Part shown: positions 31,822 through 37,345 of the stretch, piece after piece | How positions within the stretch are numbered: position 1 is the first letter of the stretch | Layout of the letters: every line of letters starts with the position of its first letter | IMG/VR virus record: IMGVR_UViG_3300017966_000001 | Span: 1 to 61,068 of that record | DNA: 61,068 nucleotides | Source of the DNA: a virus | Lineage: Duplodnaviria; Caudoviricetes | Strand: one strand, 5' to 3' | The notes under the pieces: generated by a model | Told to the model about the DNA's origin: nothing | Databases searched by the model: none | The model's input: the letters and a program-made list of their open reading frames with translations, nothing else | Program-made: the position numbers and the translations under genes

Positions 31822-32132
31822 GGATTCATTTCCTGATCAAAGGGTGCTGTTCGGTGATGGTGGTTTCGAAATCAACAACGCCTGGGTTGTGATGGACCCG
31901 TCCGCAAACCAGGCACTCCTGGCGCTGGATGCCATTCTTACGCTCTTCGTCGGTTTGCGTAACCCAGCGCCTAACATTGCATGAGCAAGTCCGCATCACA
32001 TCTCCCAGATGGTGACGAGGTTGGTTTCAGCGGCAGAAAGTTTGCTAGCGTCTCCGCCATTTTCAGGCGAGCGCTGCGACTGCCAGAGTGCAAAGAGGAA
32101 GCGGTTGAAGGCGGCGTGATACGAGTTAGGCA

Positions 32133-32486: not shown

Positions 32487-33037
32487 TAGGTCTTTTCAAA
32501 AAAGTTTGAGCCCCTGGTTGGAGGGGCTCAATTGAAGTGCTCTCTTGGTTTAGTAACAACTACCCCAACGCACAGACAAGGCATCGGCGACACCCCATCG
32601 ATAGCAATGGCTCTTCAGGTGCATGTCATTCGATATTCGTCCGTCCACGGCATGTTTCCAGCCGAGGTTGTATAGCTCGAACAGTTTTAACAGCTCGGTT
32701 CGTGTGAGTGGATTCATAATGTCACAACCTTAGACGATGCAGGATTATGATAAACGCAACAACTCGTTCAAACCAATTCGCGGACCTATCACTCACAAGA
32801 TATCGTATCGCTAGAGATATGGATAGATAGGCGGACGCTAGTAATAGGCATTGCAACCATACGGCCACATTACCTCCAAACGTTTTGATGGAACACAGCC
32901 AAACACAACGCGTGATTGGCCCGGCTAATTGCAGAATTGCCTTCCCGTGAAGCAGATCTCGCAAGCAATCGCAATATAGCATTCAGGCAATTGTTTCGGT
33001 GCTCAATTTGGCAGCTCATGTTTACCTCCACGACGTA

Positions 33038-33065
33038 AGGGTAATACCGCTGCGTTAGGTGTCAA
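33038..33065 (-). promoter_or_regulatory. Sigma70-type promoter
   Basis: TTGACA-N16-TACCCT followed by GGAGG and ATG. Confidence 0.55.
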
Positions 33066-33139
33066 GAGTGGAAATTTGAATTGTCGCGTTTTTCTGTGAT
33101 TTTACCTGTTTATGCGACAAAATGTCGTCAAATACAGAG

Positions 33140-33397
33140 TTAGACAGCATCATTCAGGTGTCGAATGATTGCAGTTTTGACTTCGATTTCATCTTCGTAT
33201 TCAAAGGGAATAACAGCCTTGGCACGTCGCAGCAGAGCATCCGACGCCTCAAGCCGATTCTTGTATCGGTTCCTGTCGTGTTCGGCTTTCTCAAGTTCCT
33301 TGGCTAATTCGACTGCCCGACCTTCATATAATTTTGCCTTGAACTTCGCATCATCCAGGGCTTCGCAGGAAACACTCAAGCAATTTTCCAGTGTCAT
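33140..33397 (-). CDS. Coiled-coil hypothetical protein (cassette gene)
   Basis: AGGAG RBS; the stop TAA lies within the GTTAGAC core site at 33139-33145. Confidence 0.7.
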   Translation of the reverse strand: MTLENCLSVSCEALDDAKFKAKLYEGRAVELAKELEKAEHDRNRYKNRLEASDALLRRAKAVIPFEYEDEIEVKTAIIRHLNDAV

Positions 33398-33429
33398 CGT
33401 TTCTCCTGTTTCTCGTTTCATCCTGTGCC

Positions 33430-33492
33430 GTCTAACCACGGCTTCAACACGGACGCGGCCTTCAGCCGCGCCGGTTAAGCCGGGCGTTAGCC
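33430..33492 (+). mobile_element. attC: Integron attC recombination site (63 bp)
   Basis: R'' GTCTAAC, 5-nt spacer, L'' CTT(C)AAC with extra C, GC-rich stem-loop, L' GTTAAG, 6-nt spacer, R' GTTAGCC. Confidence 0.88.
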
Positions 33493-33984
33493 GACCACCA
33501 AGCGATAGGCTTCCTCCCAGAGATGGGCTTCTCCTTCGCGCAGTAATTCCAGAAGAAGTCGCTTCTCTTCCAGATAGACACGCGCAAAATTTGGGTCTCG
33601 CTCAACGATGCTTCGTGTGTTGTCGATAAGGTCAGCTAGCTTAATGGTTTTTGCCTGTGGGCTCGCCTTGGACGTGTGCTCACGGTCCATGGCCTTCCTG
33701 ATGGCTCGTTTGCCATCCGAGGGCTTGGAAACATCGGTCAGCTGTTCCACCAGCGATGCGACCTCAAACCCAAATATTTGCTCGATCTCATCCAGGCTAA
33801 CCCCGCAGTCCTCCACGGTATCATGCAGCCACGCAGCGCAAAGCATTGCCTCTGTGTGCGGCACGCTCCGCACCAGTTCAGCAACGGCGGCGGGATGCGC
33901 GATGTAGGGTTCACCCGTATATTTTCGAGTTTGCCCAATCCGTGTATGGGCAAGGGTAGCAAATTCTTTGGCACGGTGCTCCAT
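33487..33984 (-). CDS. HD-domain (p)ppGpp hydrolase-like protein (Mesh1/SAH type; cassette gene)
   Basis: AH..QTRKYTGEPYIAHP, AWLHDTVEDC, LVEQLTD, IKLADLIDN. Confidence 0.9.
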   Translation of the reverse strand: MEHRAKEFATLAHTRIGQTRKYTGEPYIAHPAAVAELVRSVPHTEAMLCAAWLHDTVEDCGVSLDEIEQIFGFEVASLVEQLTDVSKPSDGKRAIRKAMDREHTSKASPQAKTIKLADLIDNTRSIVERDPNFARVYLEEKRLLLELLREGEAHLWEEAYRLVVG

Positions 33985-34010
33985 AAATCTCCTTGCTGTC
34001 AGCCACGGTC

Positions 34011-34071
34011 GCCTAACCGGTCGTTCGACCTGCGCTCCCTTGCGGTCGCCGGGCCAACTCCAGCGTTAGAT
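34011..34071 (+). mobile_element. attC: Integron attC recombination site (61 bp)
   Basis: R'' GCCTAAC, 5-nt spacer, L'' GTT(C)GACC, L' GGCCAAC, 6-nt spacer, R' GTTAGAT. Confidence 0.85.
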
Positions 34072-34230
34072 TGCTCGTTGAGCATCGGATCGGTCTGCTT
34101 CTTCCACAGCTCTCTTCCAGCGTTCAAGGTATTCCTTAAATCCCTTTCTGTTCTCAGGGTCGCTTATAAGTTCGCCACTGAACACAGAGGCATCAAGGGC
34201 ATCACAGGCTTCGTCATATCGTGGGTGCAT
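34066..34230 (-). CDS. Small acidic hypothetical protein (cassette gene)
   Basis: AAGGAGG RBS; the stop lies within R' of attC 34011-34071. Confidence 0.7.
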   Translation of the reverse strand: MHPRYDEACDALDASVFSGELISDPENRKGFKEYLERWKRAVEEADRSDAQRAI

Positions 34231-34311
34231 GTTTCCTCCTTCGCTGTCAGTTTCGATTTCCACGCCCTCTCCATCGTTTCGGCTTGCGGTTGCGCCTGGT
34301 TAACTCTATCA

Positions 34312-34491
34312 CTAGACCGTATCTCTCCCTGCCATCTGTATGCATATCGAAACAGCTCTTGGAGCGTGGTTTGAATATTTGCAGCACCAGTTGCAGTATC
34401 GGCTCCCATGCAATGGAGTCCCTGGCTTGTGCCCTGCCTCATGATGATACTTACATCCTCGACAATGATCAGGTTTCTTCTGTTTGGGCAT
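34312..34491 (-). CDS. Small Cys/His-rich protein (59 aa, not in ORF track)
   Basis: MPKQKKPDHCRGCKYHH...YCNWCCKY...; ATG immediately follows the attC-like core GTTAGGCG on the minus strand. Confidence 0.6.
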   Translation of the reverse strand: MPKQKKPDHCRGCKYHHEAGHKPGTPLHGSRYCNWCCKYSNHAPRAVSICIQMAGRDTV

Positions 34492-34492
34492 C

Positions 34493-34578
34493 GCCTAACC
34501 TTTCGATTGACTCGGACGCTACCGCCGCTTCGGTTCATTTGCCATTCTGTCTCCTTCCGGCGGCGTCCGAGTTAGCTA
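34493..34578 (+). mobile_element. Truncated/degenerate attC-like site
   Basis: R'' GCCTAAC, 5-nt spacer, long stem TGACTCGGACGC / GCGTCCGAGTTA; no R' at the expected distance. Confidence 0.55.
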
Positions 34579-34760
34579 CAATTACACCCCAAATCCTGAC
34601 TCAAATTCGATATAACTGCACGTGCATTCTCAATCAATACGTGTTGACGATGTAACGCGTGGCACGCCTCTTCTAGCAACCGAAATACTTCAATACCACC
34701 AATTGTTCCTTCTCGCAATTCGAACAAAACTTTAACTGGATCGAAGTTGTCGCGCGTCAT
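34572..34760 (-). CDS. Hypothetical protein
   Basis: ORF MTRDNFDPVKVLFELREG...; start uncertain. Confidence 0.5.
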   Translation of the reverse strand: MTRDNFDPVKVLFELREGTIGGIEVFRLLEEACHALHRQHVLIENARAVISNLSQDLGCNCS

Positions 34761-34774
34761 TTGTTTGTTACACA

Positions 34775-34963
34775 TCAGTTTATATCCAAATCGACCCAAA
34801 CCCGGTTTTCAAGGTCAAGCAGGTCGTAATGGTCATATGACATGAATTCAATGGCTGATTTAGCCTCATCCACAGTGCTGTACGACCCACGGGAGTCACA
34901 GTGACCGCCCATCGCATAATGTTGATCATAACCAAACAACAGAAATCGCTTGTATGCGCTCAT
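34775..34963 (-). CDS. Small conserved phage protein
   Basis: KRFLLFGYDQHY..GG..D..GSY motif; AAGGAGGT RBS. Confidence 0.7.
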   Translation of the reverse strand: MSAYKRFLLFGYDQHYAMGGHCDSRGSYSTVDEAKSAIEFMSYDHYDLLDLENRVWVDLDIN

Positions 34964-34975
34964 TGCGACACCTCC

Positions 34976-37345
34976 TTAAGCCTTCAGCCCATCAAAATTC
35001 AGCACCTGGAAATACCTACCCTTGCGCTTACAGTAGCGCTTGTTGAGTGTTGCTGCATCAAGCTCTTCAATGATCGAGCTGTCGCAAAGCACTTTTAGGG
35101 CATTGTCCAGTGCGAATTTGACATCCCTACTGGCTTGCTTGTAGCAAATCTTGTTTGCCACTCGCCAGTAAAGATAGGATAAGGGAACCACAGAATCCGT
35201 CAAGACCTCTTTTAACAAACCGTGAGATTTTTGTGATTTCGTGATACACTCGGCATTAACAGACAATGCCTCGAGAATGGCCTTTTTGAGCTCATAGATC
35301 TGCTTGCCTTCGGAGGCATCAGCGCCGACGTCCTTCCGAGCAAACCTAGATAAGACATTCTCCGTCTCCCAGATCACAAGGTCATGTGCCCATTGCCAGA
35401 TCGATGCGGTGATCACGGGTTGCCAGACGTTAACGCCAACTGCGATCAAGCTGGCAATCTTCAGAATTTTGAACTGCGTGCGACCCCATAAGGAAGCAGT
35501 TACCCAATCCTCGGCAGCATTTGCCGCGTTGATTAGATCGTTAGTTTTGCGATCAAACGCTTCGTCCAGAGCTAACGCGTCTACGTCAAGCTCAACTGGA
35601 GTGACTTTGTGCTCGTCATTACGCAATGTGATGGTTTTACCGACGTTCAGAAACCAATCAACCAAGTCGCAGGGTATTGGATATTTTTCCTTGTTGGCCA
35701 GGCTTCGCAATCCCGTGTATTCGAAGATGCTAAACCTAGGCAAAAAACCATCAGTGCACGCCTCGTCTGTTAAATTCTTCCAGAAAGACCCAGGAGCCGA
35801 TTCACAAAGCATGGAAAAAGCAGGTTGAATTGTCGCAGCAACGTTTTTTTCCTTGTCGCTGTAGGTCTGGCCGATCAGGATGTTACCCTTCTCGCCCTTA
35901 CCGTAGAGATCCAGGAACGCCTCAGCCAAGCCACGATATGTCTCGGATGGGTTCTTACCGCCCATGCGGCCCAACTGCTTACCAAACTCGCCAAACAATG
36001 ACACGCAACATGGGTTCTCCGCAAGGTGTCGCATCAATCCGGAGTAGCTGGCCGCTTTTGGACCCAGAAAGTTTGCGATCTTTGGATCACGCTGCCGCAA
36101 AGTAGCAAGCAAATTGCTTACGTTTTTGGTAGTGTCTTCCTTGCCAGTCGCCGGCCCCGCCACCAACACCATATAGATATTGAGCGACGTATCCCAAACA
36201 CTATGGCTCCGCCCAAACACCCCGGAGAATAGACCCAGCGCTGACACAATCGAAATCAACGGGATTGGTCGTTTGGAGTTGCGGTAGAACGCTTTAGCGA
36301 GCTCACCTACTTTGCCCTCTGGCCAGGTTGGCTGCCACTCCAGAGTGTTGCCGGCAGGTGTCTCGATTACAACCGGCTCAGCTGGATCAGACAGGAACGG
36401 ATTGGGTATCGGCTCAACCTCTGGCAGCACAAGATCCATCGCTCGGCTGAACGTCCTGTCGAGATAGTCTTCACGGAAAGCTTTTGGCCTTTGGCCAAGC
36501 TGACTTTGGTGGAACAACCGAATCGTCTGCTCTTTGTTCCGAGAGTGGAATGAGAGCATGTTGAACAAAGCTTGATCATAGGTCGACTGCCCAGAGCCAT
36601 CCCAAGTCTGTGGATACAGGACCTTCAAATCATCAAAGTCCCGCTCAAAGAACGCGGCAAACTTTTCACCGTTGAATCGATGACAGCGTTCCAAAACCTC
36701 ATCATCGTCATACCGAACTTCTTCGGAGATCACTTGAACAGTAGCGTTGTTACTGTTACCAGGCACCTGAAAGTAGTAGGCCTTCATGGCGCTGAGTTTC
36801 TCCTGGATGGCTTCAGGAGACTGCAACAGCACATCGATGACCATATCACCAGTCAAAGCGATAAAGCGCTTGCTGGTATAGAATTCAATCTCTTTAGTGC
36901 GGCGATTAAAGACCTCATTGGTCTTGAGGAAGACGTGCAAACCACGTCCTGATACCGACACCTCGGTGGGGCAATTGAGCCATTTACAGAGCTCCCAGGA
37001 TTGGGTGCAAATCGGGTCATCCATCTCCAGGTGTTTGAGGTCAATGTCCAAGATTGCGTATGGATCGTCCTCAAAAAGCATCAACCCGATGCCATTTGCA
37101 TCAGTATTATATGCACAAGCAAGTGCCGTCTCAAAATCAACGCAGTCCTGCCGACTCTTGGGGTAAGCCGTGAGTCCAGTAAATGGACTCTTGGGCACCT
37201 TGGCGGGGCGAGTCCCATCCTCTGGATTCACCTCCAAGCAATACGGGATAAACTGCTGCAGACTTCGGATTTCCTCAGGCAGGCGCCTGAGAGTTGCAAT
37301 TTGTTGGTCTGTCAAAGGCATATTTAAGACCTCATTGGTGCCCAC
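34976..37345 (-). CDS. Primase-polymerase (AEP / NrS-1-like) fused to a P-loop helicase-like domain
   Basis: KVPKSP, LDIDLKH, EVSVSGRGLHVF, RFIALTG; helical bundle RLFHQSQL..R.K..R.DYL; AGPATGKE. Confidence 0.85.
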   Translation of the reverse strand: MGTNEVLNMPLTDQQIATLRRLPEEIRSLQQFIPYCLEVNPEDGTRPAKVPKSPFTGLTAYPKSRQDCVDFETALACAYNTDANGIGLMLFEDDPYAILDIDLKHLEMDDPICTQSWELCKWLNCPTEVSVSGRGLHVFLKTNEVFNRRTKEIEFYTSKRFIALTGDMVIDVLLQSPEAIQEKLSAMKAYYFQVPGNSNNATVQVISEEVRYDDDEVLERCHRFNGEKFAAFFERDFDDLKVLYPQTWDGSGQSTYDQALFNMLSFHSRNKEQTIRLFHQSQLGQRPKAFREDYLDRTFSRAMDLVLPEVEPIPNPFLSDPAEPVVIETPAGNTLEWQPTWPEGKVGELAKAFYRNSKRPIPLISIVSALGLFSGVFGRSHSVWDTSLNIYMVLVAGPATGKEDTTKNVSNLLATLRQRDPKIANFLGPKAASYSGLMRHLAENPCCVSLFGEFGKQLGRMGGKNPSETYRGLAEAFLDLYGKGEKGNILIGQTYSDKEKNVAATIQPAFSMLCESAPGSFWKNLTDEACTDGFLPRFSIFEYTGLRSLANKEKYPIPCDLVDWFLNVGKTITLRNDEHKVTPVELDVDALALDEAFDRKTNDLINAANAAEDWVTASLWGRTQFKILKIASLIAVGVNVWQPVITASIWQWAHDLVIWETENVLSRFARKDVGADASEGKQIYELKKAILEALSVNAECITKSQKSHGLLKEVLTDSVVPLSYLYWRVANKICYKQASRDVKFALDNALKVLCDSSIIEELDAATLNKRYCKRKGRYFQVLNFDGLKA

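What the first reader, a model, noticed from the sequence alone, without database searches (positions are those of the whole stretch)
33080..34578. Integron-type gene-cassette array (attC sites, no integrase) inside a phage genome
Seen: two canonical attC sites (33430-33492 and 34011-34071), each with RYYYAAC, 5-nt spacer, L'' with one extra C, stem-loop, L', 6-nt spacer and GTTRRRY. Each cassette's left end matches its own R'' better than the adjacent R' does. For cassette 33140-33486, start GTTAGACAGCA versus reverse complement of the R'' flank GTTAGACGGCA gives 10/11. For cassette 33487-34065, start GTTAGCCGACC versus GTTAGGCGACC gives 10/11. Established: this is the signature of cassettes that were once circles with a complete attC and were inserted by IntI at G/TT. 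No tyrosine recombinase was found in the genome, which also appears to lack a lysogeny module. Inference: the phage gains or shuffles single accessory genes using a host integron integrase in trans, i.e. a phage-borne CALIN-like variable locus.
Basis: partly seen in the sequence, partly recalled or inferred. Interest (0 to 1): 0.9.

Follow-up and report, generated by a model that had tools for sequence, protein, structure and literature searches.

The report
Integron gene cassettes inside a phage
A complete 61-kb phage genome with no recombinase gene carries three small gene cassettes bounded by integron-type attC recombination sites, a known but rare arrangement, and here every cassette gene faces the opposite way to the bacterial norm.

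Summary
I built an attC covariance model from 19 class 1 integron sites taken from plasmids. Run without filters over the whole window, it finds exactly the two claimed sites: 34011-34071 (31.6 bits, E 9e-6) and 33430-33492 (30.8 bits, E 1e-5). It also finds a degenerate third site at 34493-34577 (15.6 bits, E 0.1). All three lie on the + strand; the next hit is 10.4 bits.

About 3.7 Mb of control loci gave nothing above 17.3 bits, except two other phage lineages that carry attC arrays beside a homologue of the same HD-domain gene. The 10/11 match between each cassette's start and its own R'' flank is real for 2 of 3 cassettes. The phage is complete (terminal repeats) and has no tyrosine or serine recombinase.

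This is therefore a CALIN (attC cluster lacking an integrase) in an integrase-less phage. Capture or shuffling by a host IntI in trans is inferred, not shown. The kind is already published (Qi et al. 2023), so this is a new member.

The unexpected feature is that all cassette genes are antisense to their attC sites, with each stop codon inside an R' box. I saw this orientation in 4 of 5 phage lineages examined. This scan has noted integron-like phage arrays before on other DNA.

The parts
33139..33145 (+). Leading core-type site GTTAGAC. The G|TT junction at 33139/33140 is the left end of the array. No attC lies to its left.
   Evidence: Sequence. 10/11 complementary to the flank of site A's R''. 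No model hit upstream at E<=10.
33140..33486 (+). Cassette 1 (347 bp): one reversed ORF plus attC A up to the G of its R' box.
   Evidence: Boundaries follow from the G|TT positions of the leading core site and of site A.
33140..33400 (-). 86-aa ORF with an ATG start and a GGAG ribosome-binding site. It is an orphan. Its TAA stop lies inside the leading GTTAGAC.
   Evidence: No Pfam or PHROG match. Only 3 weak partial relatives among 1.84 billion representatives.
33430..33492 (+). attC site A: well-folding, with a canonical R''/L''/L'/R' layout, one extrahelical base and a 5/6-nt spacer asymmetry.
   Evidence: 30.8 bits, E 1.4e-5. DNA fold -23.7 kcal/mol, z -4.1. Bottom-strand R-box pairing p 0.60.
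33487..34065 (+). Cassette 2 (579 bp): the reversed HD-domain gene plus attC B.
   Evidence: Boundaries from the G|TT of sites A and B. Start against own R'' flank is 10/11.
33487..33984 (-). 165-aa HD_4 (RelA/SpoT-type HD) phosphohydrolase gene. Its TAA stop lies inside the R' box of site A.
   Evidence: Pfam HD_4 4e-19. phrog_990 5e-39. 5419 homologues, the best 81-85% identical.
34011..34071 (+). attC site B: the best model score but a weak central stem.
   Evidence: 31.6 bits, E 8.6e-6. Fold with flanks z +0.7. R-box pairing p 0.37, MFE -8.8.
34066..34571 (+). Cassette 3 (506 bp): one or two small reversed ORFs plus the degenerate attC C.
   Evidence: Boundaries from the G|TT of sites B and C. 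The own-R'' rule is not met (5/11).
34066..34230 (-). 54-aa ORF with an ATG start and a GGAGG ribosome-binding site. Its TAA stop lies inside the R' box of site B. Whether it is a real gene is not shown.
   Evidence: No family match.
34312..34491 (-). Possible 59-aa Cys/His-rich ORF. An alternative 124-aa ORF (34164-34538) overlaps it. The gene call is uncertain.
   Evidence: No family match.
34493..34577 (+). attC site C: degenerate. R'' GCCTAAC and R' GTTAGCT are present, but the L boxes are not paired.
   Evidence: 15.6 bits, E 0.095. R-box pairing p 0.044. The stem at 34510-34572 has z -3.2.
34572..34799 (-). 75-aa flanking phage gene. Its TAA stop is the TTA of site C's R' box, which I infer to be the original G|TT target.
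   Evidence: The target role is inference.

Best explanation
The 1.43-kb stretch 33140-34571 is a cluster of three integron-type gene cassettes (347, 579 and 506 bp) in a complete, non-integrating phage.

Shown:
- Each cassette ends in an attC site whose top strand is the window's + strand.
- The genes lie on the - strand.
- The phage encodes no recombinase.

Inferred:
- The cassettes entered as circles through an IntI-type integrase supplied by a host cell.
- The first one landed at a G|TT that sits on the stop codon (TAA-C, read GTTA on the other strand) of the 75-aa phage gene downstream of the primase. IntI is known to insert cassettes at simple GWT sites in double-stranded DNA.
- The later ones landed at the resulting attC sites.
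- Because the target strand is antisense to the phage genes, only cassettes whose gene is reversed relative to attC are co-oriented with phage transcription, so only those are kept.
- They are read through from the primase operon up to the terminator at 32531-32506.
- In a host that expresses IntI the cassettes could still be excised or exchanged. Site A is the most competent, site B less so, and site C is probably decayed.
For: - Model hits: the attC model built from plasmid integrons hits only these three sites in the window, all on one strand.
- Controls with the same model:
  - best 16.0 bits in 1.274 Mb of 80 distant-relative phage loci;
  - 0 hits at E<=5 in 1.15 Mb of 80 bacterial loci;
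  - among 80 metagenome loci, hits only in L181 (5 hits) plus one 13.6-bit hit in L243;
  - among 80 viral loci, hits only in L260/L261 plus one 15.9-bit hit in L258.
- Published phage attC clusters score lower than sites A and B. TJE1 gives 24.9, 13.7 and 10.1 bits. PH101 gives 21.7, 21.6 and 21.6 bits. Of the six attC sites tested from three phages including these two, five were recombined by IntI1 (PMC9892861, section 3.4).
- The cassette-start versus own-R'' hallmark is 10/11 in 2 of 3 cassettes, better than the adjacent R' (8/11 and 6/11). The same rule holds in TJE1.
- R-box pairing probability is 0.60 for site A and 0.37 for site B. Five plasmid attC sites scored the same way give 0.19-0.89.
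- HD homologues lie in attC arrays of the same antisense layout in two other phage lineages. L181 has 7 sites. L261 has 2 clear sites and 4 weak or collapsed ones and is a complete 50.5-kb phage without PF00589.
- The HD protein is 70-85% identical to many proteins, while the primase is about 30% identical to its nearest relatives.
- The HD stop codon lies in a YTAAC context, as in only 4 of 230 homologue loci.
- The phage has no recombinase.
- IntI inserts cassettes at GWT genomic sites (bioRxiv 10.1101/2022.09.11.507474; passages read).
Against: - No recombination event was observed.
- No close relative exists, so no indel boundary could be tested.
- The two runs that hold the phage are probably its source and carry identical contigs.
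- None of the 80 bacterial genome loci with HD homologues has an attC, so no bacterial integron copy of a cassette was found.
- All genes are antisense to attC, which is not the standard cassette layout. The selection argument offered for this is untested.
- Site B's fold is weak and site C fails the fold and the own-R'' tests.
- The own-R'' rule is mixed in L181 and L261.
- GC content of the array (0.532 against 0.496) is only in the top 7% of windows of equal size.
- The host, and whether it has an integron, are unknown.
Confidence: 0.65

Rival explanations
1. The attC sites are genuine, but the array is an inert relic. It was captured once as a block, by illegitimate or homologous recombination with another phage or element, is now inherited vertically, and its sites are decaying.
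For: - Site C is degenerate and site B folds weakly.
- L261 shows collapsed R''-R' remnants and weak sites between genes, so decay does happen in phage arrays.
- No variants appear in the two runs.
- Qi et al. also suggest off-target recombination as a route of entry (PMC9892861, section 3.4).
Against: - Two cassettes keep the 10/11 own-R'' hallmark.
- Site A is as well formed as plasmid attC sites.
- Block capture from a bacterial array would be expected to bring genes that are sense to attC.
- The same HD gene sits in attC arrays of three otherwise unrelated phages.
Confidence: 0.2
2. The sites are used by a recombinase other than IntI, for example a phage- or host-encoded Xer-like enzyme, in a phage-specific cassette system that only resembles integrons.
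For: - The gene orientation is opposite to the integron norm in 4 of 5 phage lineages examined.
- Earlier notes of this scan describe phage arrays run by small Xer-type recombinases. These are unchecked leads.
Against: - The sites match a model made purely from class 1 integron attC sites, down to the extrahelical base and the 5/6 spacer asymmetry.
- PH101, which has the same antisense layout, is one of the three phages whose attC sites were tested with IntI1; five of the six tested sites were recombined (PMC9892861).
- Neither this phage nor L261's phage encodes a tyrosine recombinase.
Confidence: 0.07
3. The hairpins are ordinary intergenic regulatory structures (terminators, attenuators or mRNA-stabilising stems) that resemble attC by chance.
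For: - They lie exactly between genes of one operon.
- attC sites are thought to act as weak terminators (PMC9892861, section 3.4).
Against: - No T-run follows the stems, and no terminator-like call falls at A or B on the transcribed strand.
- Scores of 30.8 and 31.6 bits compare with at most 17.3 bits in about 3.7 Mb of controls outside attC arrays.
- The conserved AAC/GTT boxes, the spacer asymmetry and the cassette-end complementarity are not expected of terminators.
Confidence: 0.05

Closest known systems
[quoted passage not shown] 2023, PMC9892861)
   Same: - Two or more attC sites lie close together with single small genes between them.
- No intI is present, and the phage has no integrase.
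- The sites are detectable with an attC covariance model. My model scores TJE1 at 24.9/13.7/10.1 bits and PH101 at 21.6-21.7 bits.
- In PH101 the annotated genes are also antisense to the attC sites.
   Different: - This phage is unrelated to them and comes from a peat metagenome.
- Its sites score higher.
- Its cargo is an HD-domain hydrolase and orphan genes, not methyltransferases.
- Each stop codon sits inside an R' box.
- In TJE1 the genes are sense to attC.
- The paper's main text does not mention gene-versus-attC orientation: 0 occurrences of 'antisense' or 'opposite'. Its supplements were not seen.
Class 1 and other mobile integron cassettes (attC, the '59-base element', recombined by IntI at G|TT)
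   Same: - R''/L''/L'/R' boxes, an extrahelical base in L'', a 5/6-nt unpaired spacer and a variable stem-loop.
- The cassette start is complementary to its own R''.
- Site B's 5' half and site A's layout closely resemble the attC of the aac(6')-IIc cassette seen in L088.
   Different: - No intI, attI or Pc promoter.
- The genes are reversed. All 19 plasmid cassettes used for the model have the gene on the attC top strand.
- Expression must come from phage transcription.
IntI-mediated cassette insertion at non-att genomic sites (attG, consensus GWT; Loot and co-workers, bioRxiv 10.1101/2022.09.11.507474)
   Same: The left end of the array is a bare G|TT core with no attC or attI-like site before it. 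That is what insertion into a simple genomic GTT would leave.
   Different: That work was done in E. coli chromosomes under laboratory conditions. Its use on a phage genome is my inference.

Membership tests
Integron attC site | Inverse core R'' (RYYYAAC) and core R' (GTTRRRY) that pair with each other | tested here: met
   A: GTCTAAC / GTTAGCC, with one departure in R'. B: GCCTAAC / GTTAGAT. C: GCCTAAC / GTTAGCT..
Integron attC site | L''/L' boxes with an extrahelical base and an asymmetric unpaired spacer (5 nt on one side, 6 nt on the other), which set the recombined strand | tested here: met
   Met for A and B on the + strand (model alignment; sequence). Not met for C, where the L pairs are non-canonical.
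Integron attC site | Significant match to an attC covariance model | tested here: met
   My own model, built from 19 plasmid attC sites, gives B 31.6 bits and A 30.8 bits (E about 1e-5), and C 15.6 bits (E 0.095). The curated IntegronFinder model was not available.
Integron attC site | The bottom strand folds into the recombinogenic hairpin | tested here: inconclusive
   A: p 0.60, -21.5 kcal/mol. B: p 0.37 but only -8.8 kcal/mol, and no better than shuffles when flanks are included. C: p 0.044..
Integron attC site | Recombined by an IntI integrase between G and TT of R' | not testable with these tools
   Needs an attC x attI or excision assay.
Integron gene cassette | The cassette's first bases (TTRRRY...) are complementary to its own R'' rather than to the neighbouring one | tested here: met
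   10/11 against 8/11 for cassette 1 and 10/11 against 6/11 for cassette 2. Cassette 3 fails (5/11 against 5/11)..
Integron gene cassette | A promoterless gene on the attC top strand, upstream of its attC | tested here: not met
   All cassette ORFs, including the Pfam-supported HD gene, lie on the - strand, while all three attC sites are on the + strand.
CALIN (attC cluster lacking an integrase) | At least two attC sites close together (within about 4 kb; threshold recalled from the IntegronFinder definition) and no intI nearby | tested here: met
   Three sites lie within 1.15 kb. No TIGR02249 or PF00589 match occurs in the complete genome.
Complete integron | An intI gene, an attI site and a Pc promoter | tested here: not met
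   No intI. No attC or attI-like hit left of 33139. Promoter-like sites occur at the chance level.
Mobile cassette array (any) | Gene content differs between relatives exactly at the recombination points | not testable with these tools
   No close relative was found. L260 and L261 are 99.98% identical with no indel.
Intrinsic terminator | A G+C-rich stem followed by a T-run on the transcribed strand | tested here: not met
   No such call falls at sites A or B. The number of calls in the region equals the shuffle expectation.

The most novel reading that the evidence does not exclude
Phage genomes hold a distinct 'inverted' kind of integron cassette, in which the recombinogenic bottom strand of attC is the coding strand and each stop codon (TAA-C) doubles as the G|TT crossover point.

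On this reading, the layout arises because IntI targets GTTA at the ends of phage genes, and only reversed cassettes are then expressed. Phages would be a separate, self-sorting pool of cassettes, and perhaps a place where cassettes are made. An HD-type (alarmone-hydrolase-like) gene would be a recurrent passenger.

If genes are co-directional with replication, this orientation also puts the bottom strand on the lagging-strand template, which favours folding and excision (PMC5371416).
Probability: 0.3. Interest if true: 0.7.

Novelty: new member of a known kind. Interest (0 to 1): 0.5.

Why it matters
The finding adds an uncultured peat phage to the few phages known to carry integron cassettes. 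It comes with unusually clear sites and the cassette-end hallmark.

It also raises two leads that can be tested:
- Phage cassette genes are commonly reversed relative to attC (4 of 5 lineages here, including one published phage). That would change how such arrays are expressed, and perhaps how often they recombine.
- A small HD-domain hydrolase travels as a cassette between unrelated phages.

If confirmed by recombination assays, this would strengthen the view that integron integrases remodel phage genomes and that phages carry cassettes between hosts.

Tried and rejected
- Motif counting. The strict RYYYAAC...GTTRRRY count gave 11 pairs per strand in the window and did not discriminate. A hairpin heuristic anchored on AAC/GTT was too loose and then timed out. 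A TAAC/GTTA-anchored version singled out site A in the window and about 8 sites in 1.33 Mb of loci. I replaced it with the covariance model.
- Rfam. No relevant family: the best hit was ylbH at 19.2 bits, E 0.98, below its threshold.
- Close relatives. None in GenBank phages. None by exact primase peptides. The 80 loci found with a primase alignment are all about 30% identical and hold no attC.
- Bacterial integron copies. None of the 80 genome loci with HD homologues has an attC hit.
- Other cassette proteins. tblastn found no homologues of the other small window proteins in any fetched locus. The 86-aa protein has only 3 weak partial relatives.
- Population variation. Two peat-metagenome runs, probably the source, carry identical contigs with no joints or differences. 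This says nothing either way about mobility.
- Extra sites considered and not accepted. GCCTAAC at 31969 paired with GTTAGGC at 32125 is a perfect 7-nt inverted repeat 149 bp apart. GTTAGGT at 33054 looks like a 3' attC half. Neither has model support at E<=10.
- GC content is only mildly raised. Promoter and terminator scans are at the chance level.
- Not seen: the supplements of PMC9892861 (site coordinates, the 17 CALINs). They may already list orientation data.
Full report
**What is there.** The window is a complete virus record of 61,068 bp with direct terminal repeats, rated 100% complete. Around the finding every gene lies on the - strand:
- a DNA primase (34976-37345; phrog_3022, 4.5e-136);
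- two small genes of 62 and 75 aa;
- one or two small ORFs (54 aa, and perhaps 59 aa);
- a 165-aa HD_4 phosphohydrolase (33487-33984; Pfam 4e-19; phrog_990);
- an 86-aa orphan (33140-33400);
- further small genes, ending at a strong - strand terminator at 32531-32506.

The three intergenic elements sit exactly between these genes.

**Checking the observation.** Site A (33430-33492) reads on the + strand as R'' GTCTAAC, a 5-nt spacer, L'' with one extra C, a G+C-rich stem-loop, L', a 6-nt spacer and R' GTTAGCC. As single-stranded DNA it folds at -23.7 kcal/mol, z -4.1. Site B (34011-34071) has the same boxes but a weak centre. With flanks it folds no better than shuffles (z +0.7).

The IntegronFinder model is not available here, so I built one. 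I located intI1 on plasmid R100 and used it to find integron-bearing plasmids. I fetched 12 arrays and cut out 19 different attC sites downstream of annotated cassette genes. I aligned them (A2) and built model R1 with the 7 R-box and 7 L-box pairs.

Run over the whole window, both strands, filters off, R1 returns:
- site B: 31.6 bits (E 8.6e-6);
- site A: 30.8 bits (E 1.4e-5);
- a third site, 34493-34577: 15.6 bits (E 0.095);
- nothing else above 10.4 bits.

All three are on the + strand, and the - strand of the same places does not reach E 10. The model's E-values are rough, so I relied on empirical controls:
- 1.274 Mb of 80 phage loci with distant primase relatives: best 16.0 bits.
- 1.15 Mb of 80 bacterial loci: no hit at E<=5.
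- 0.54 Mb of metagenome loci and 0.70 Mb of viral loci: hits only in L181 and L260/L261, plus single hits of 13.6 and 15.9 bits.

Two published phage attC clusters served as positive controls:
- TJE1 gives 24.9, 13.7 and 10.1 bits at the ends of its first three ORFs.
- PH101 gives three hits of 21.6-21.7 bits.

So sites A and B score above attC sites from phages in which IntI1 recombination was demonstrated (PMC9892861, section 3.4).

Cut exactly from R'' to R', the bottom strands pair their R boxes with these probabilities:
- site A: 0.60;
- site B: 0.37;
- site C: 0.044;
- five plasmid attC sites: 0.19-0.89;
- TJE1 sites: 0.04-0.81.

It fails for the third (5/11). The same rule holds in TJE1. 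With the GTTAG/CTAAC core taken as given, 5 of 6 further matches has a chance of roughly 0.005 per cassette (my arithmetic).

**What it is.** These are three integron-type cassettes of 347, 579 and 506 bp with no integrase. No PF00589, TIGR02249 or PF00239 match occurs anywhere in the genome. That makes the locus a CALIN. The left end is a bare GTTAGAC with no attC or attI-like site before it. The right end is the R' box of site C, whose TTA is the stop codon of the 75-aa phage gene.

**The odd feature.** All 19 plasmid cassettes used for the model carry the gene on the attC top strand. In the window every cassette gene is on the opposite strand. Each TAA stop lies inside a core box (33139, 33486, 34065, 34571), and each start codon lies about 30 nt from the next R''. 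The strand call is robust: it rests on the extrahelical base, the 5/6 spacer asymmetry and a gap of more than 20 bits between the two strands. Nivina et al. 2016 (PMC5027507; search listing and abstract only) describe these unpaired features as what sets insertion orientation.

The same layout recurs in other phages:
- In L181, a phage-like metagenome contig (Sak4-like protein, phrog_124), seven attC hits of 8.7-17.3 bits all lie on the strand opposite to the genes, and stop codons fall in or near R'.
- In L261, a complete 50.5-kb phage without a tyrosine recombinase, the sites lie between primase and terminase. There is one 47.7-bit site, one 21-bit site and four weak or collapsed remnants, all antisense to the genes.
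- In published phage PH101, all three hits are on the + strand and all nine annotated CDS of the region are on the - strand.
- Only TJE1 is sense.

That makes 4 of 5 phage lineages antisense. L260 was not counted separately, because it is 99.98% identical to L261. The main text of PMC9892861 does not mention this orientation; I could not see its supplements.

**The HD gene as a travelling cassette.**
- The HD protein has 5419 homologues in the search, the best 81-85% identical. The primase's nearest relatives are about 30% identical.
- Among 240 loci fetched for HD homologues, attC arrays appeared beside the gene in L181 and in L260/L261, and in none of the 80 bacterial genome loci.
- The primases of the window and of L261 are barely related (28% over 285 residues). 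No other small protein is shared.
- The HD stop codon lies in a YTAAC context in only 4 of 230 homologue loci. So the R' box at its end is a feature of the cassette, not of the gene family.

**How it most likely works (inference).**
- In a host that expresses an integron integrase, a cassette circle recombined with a G|TT in the phage DNA. IntI is reported to insert cassettes at simple GWT sites of double-stranded genomes (bioRxiv 10.1101/2022.09.11.507474; passages read).
- A stop codon TAA followed by C reads GTTA on the other strand. Gene ends therefore offer harmless targets whose top strand is antisense to the phage genes.
- A cassette inserted there is transcribed with the phage operon only if its gene is reversed relative to attC. 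That would explain the orientation.
- Further cassettes could then enter at the new attC.
- There is no excess of promoter-like sites in the region (6 found, 5.7 expected), so expression by read-through from the primase operon is the simplest reading.
- If these genes are co-directional with replication, the bottom strand lies on the lagging-strand template. That is reported to favour attC folding and excision (PMC5371416; passages read). This last step is speculation.

**What is not shown.**
- No recombination event was seen, and no variant lacks a cassette. The two runs that hold the phage, both peat metagenomes, are probably its source and are identical.
- No bacterial integron copy of a cassette was found.
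- The host is unknown.
- Site C may be dead.
- The array could equally be a decaying relic.

**Comparison and novelty.** CALINs in temperate and virulent phages were described by Qi et al. 2023 (PMC9892861): 17 CALINs, with five of six tested phage attC sites recombined by IntI1. This locus is therefore a new member of a known kind, in an unrelated, uncultured phage. New here, as far as my two literature searches show, are:
- the systematic antisense orientation, with stop codons inside R';
- the recurrence of an HD-type hydrolase cassette in three unrelated phages.

Earlier notes of this scan report integron-like arrays in other phages, some 'with the genes facing the other way'. I treated them as unchecked leads.

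**Verdict.** Interest is moderate.

Noticed in passing
L261 6431-6447 and 4965-4984 (- strand): Collapsed attC remnants between genes: an R'' box joined to an R' box by only about 2 nt. They resemble the truncated site after aadA1 in plasmid locus L084. This suggests attC sites in phage arrays decay by deletion of the hairpin.
   Followed up: partly
KR534323 (phage PH101) 76529-77987; locus L340: In this published phage CALIN, the three model hits are all on the + strand, while all nine annotated CDS of 75000-79000 are on the - strand. The genes are therefore antisense to attC. The paper's main text does not say so.
   Followed up: partly
L044 3742-3812 and L033 379-449 (also L044 2828-2915, 7236-7321, 14359-14414): Phage contigs from one metagenome that are distant primase relatives carry several 56-88-nt hairpins with TAAC/GTTA at the base. 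Two of them are nearly identical. The attC model did not hit them at E<=10. Their nature is unknown.
   Followed up: no
window 31969-31975 and 32125-32131: GCCTAAC and GTTAGGC form a perfect 7-nt inverted repeat 149 bp apart, next to the stop codon of the 117-aa gene. They may be a cassette remnant, but they have no model support.
   Followed up: partly
window 33046-33060: A sequence resembling the 3' end of an attC (spacer plus GTTAGGT) lies 80 nt left of the array's left end. The stop codon of a 32-aa ORF lies within it. No model hit.
   Followed up: no
window 32506-32531 (- strand): A strong intrinsic-terminator-like hairpin (10 pairs plus a T-run) probably ends the transcription unit that includes the primase and the cassettes.
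   Followed up: no
window 33487-33984: The HD_4 protein is 70-85% identical to many metagenomic and some bacterial proteins (for example, a source names an Endozoicomonas protein at 70%). It is also common in viral contigs: at least 569 matching stretches. It looks like a widely exchanged phage accessory gene, possibly an alarmone hydrolase. Its function was not tested here.
   Followed up: partly
L085 3884-6063 and L087 2635-4717: Group II intron reverse transcriptase genes sit inside the attC sites of the blaIMP-26 and aadA16 cassettes on two plasmids. This is the known group IIC-attC intron habit, seen while collecting seed sites.
   Followed up: no
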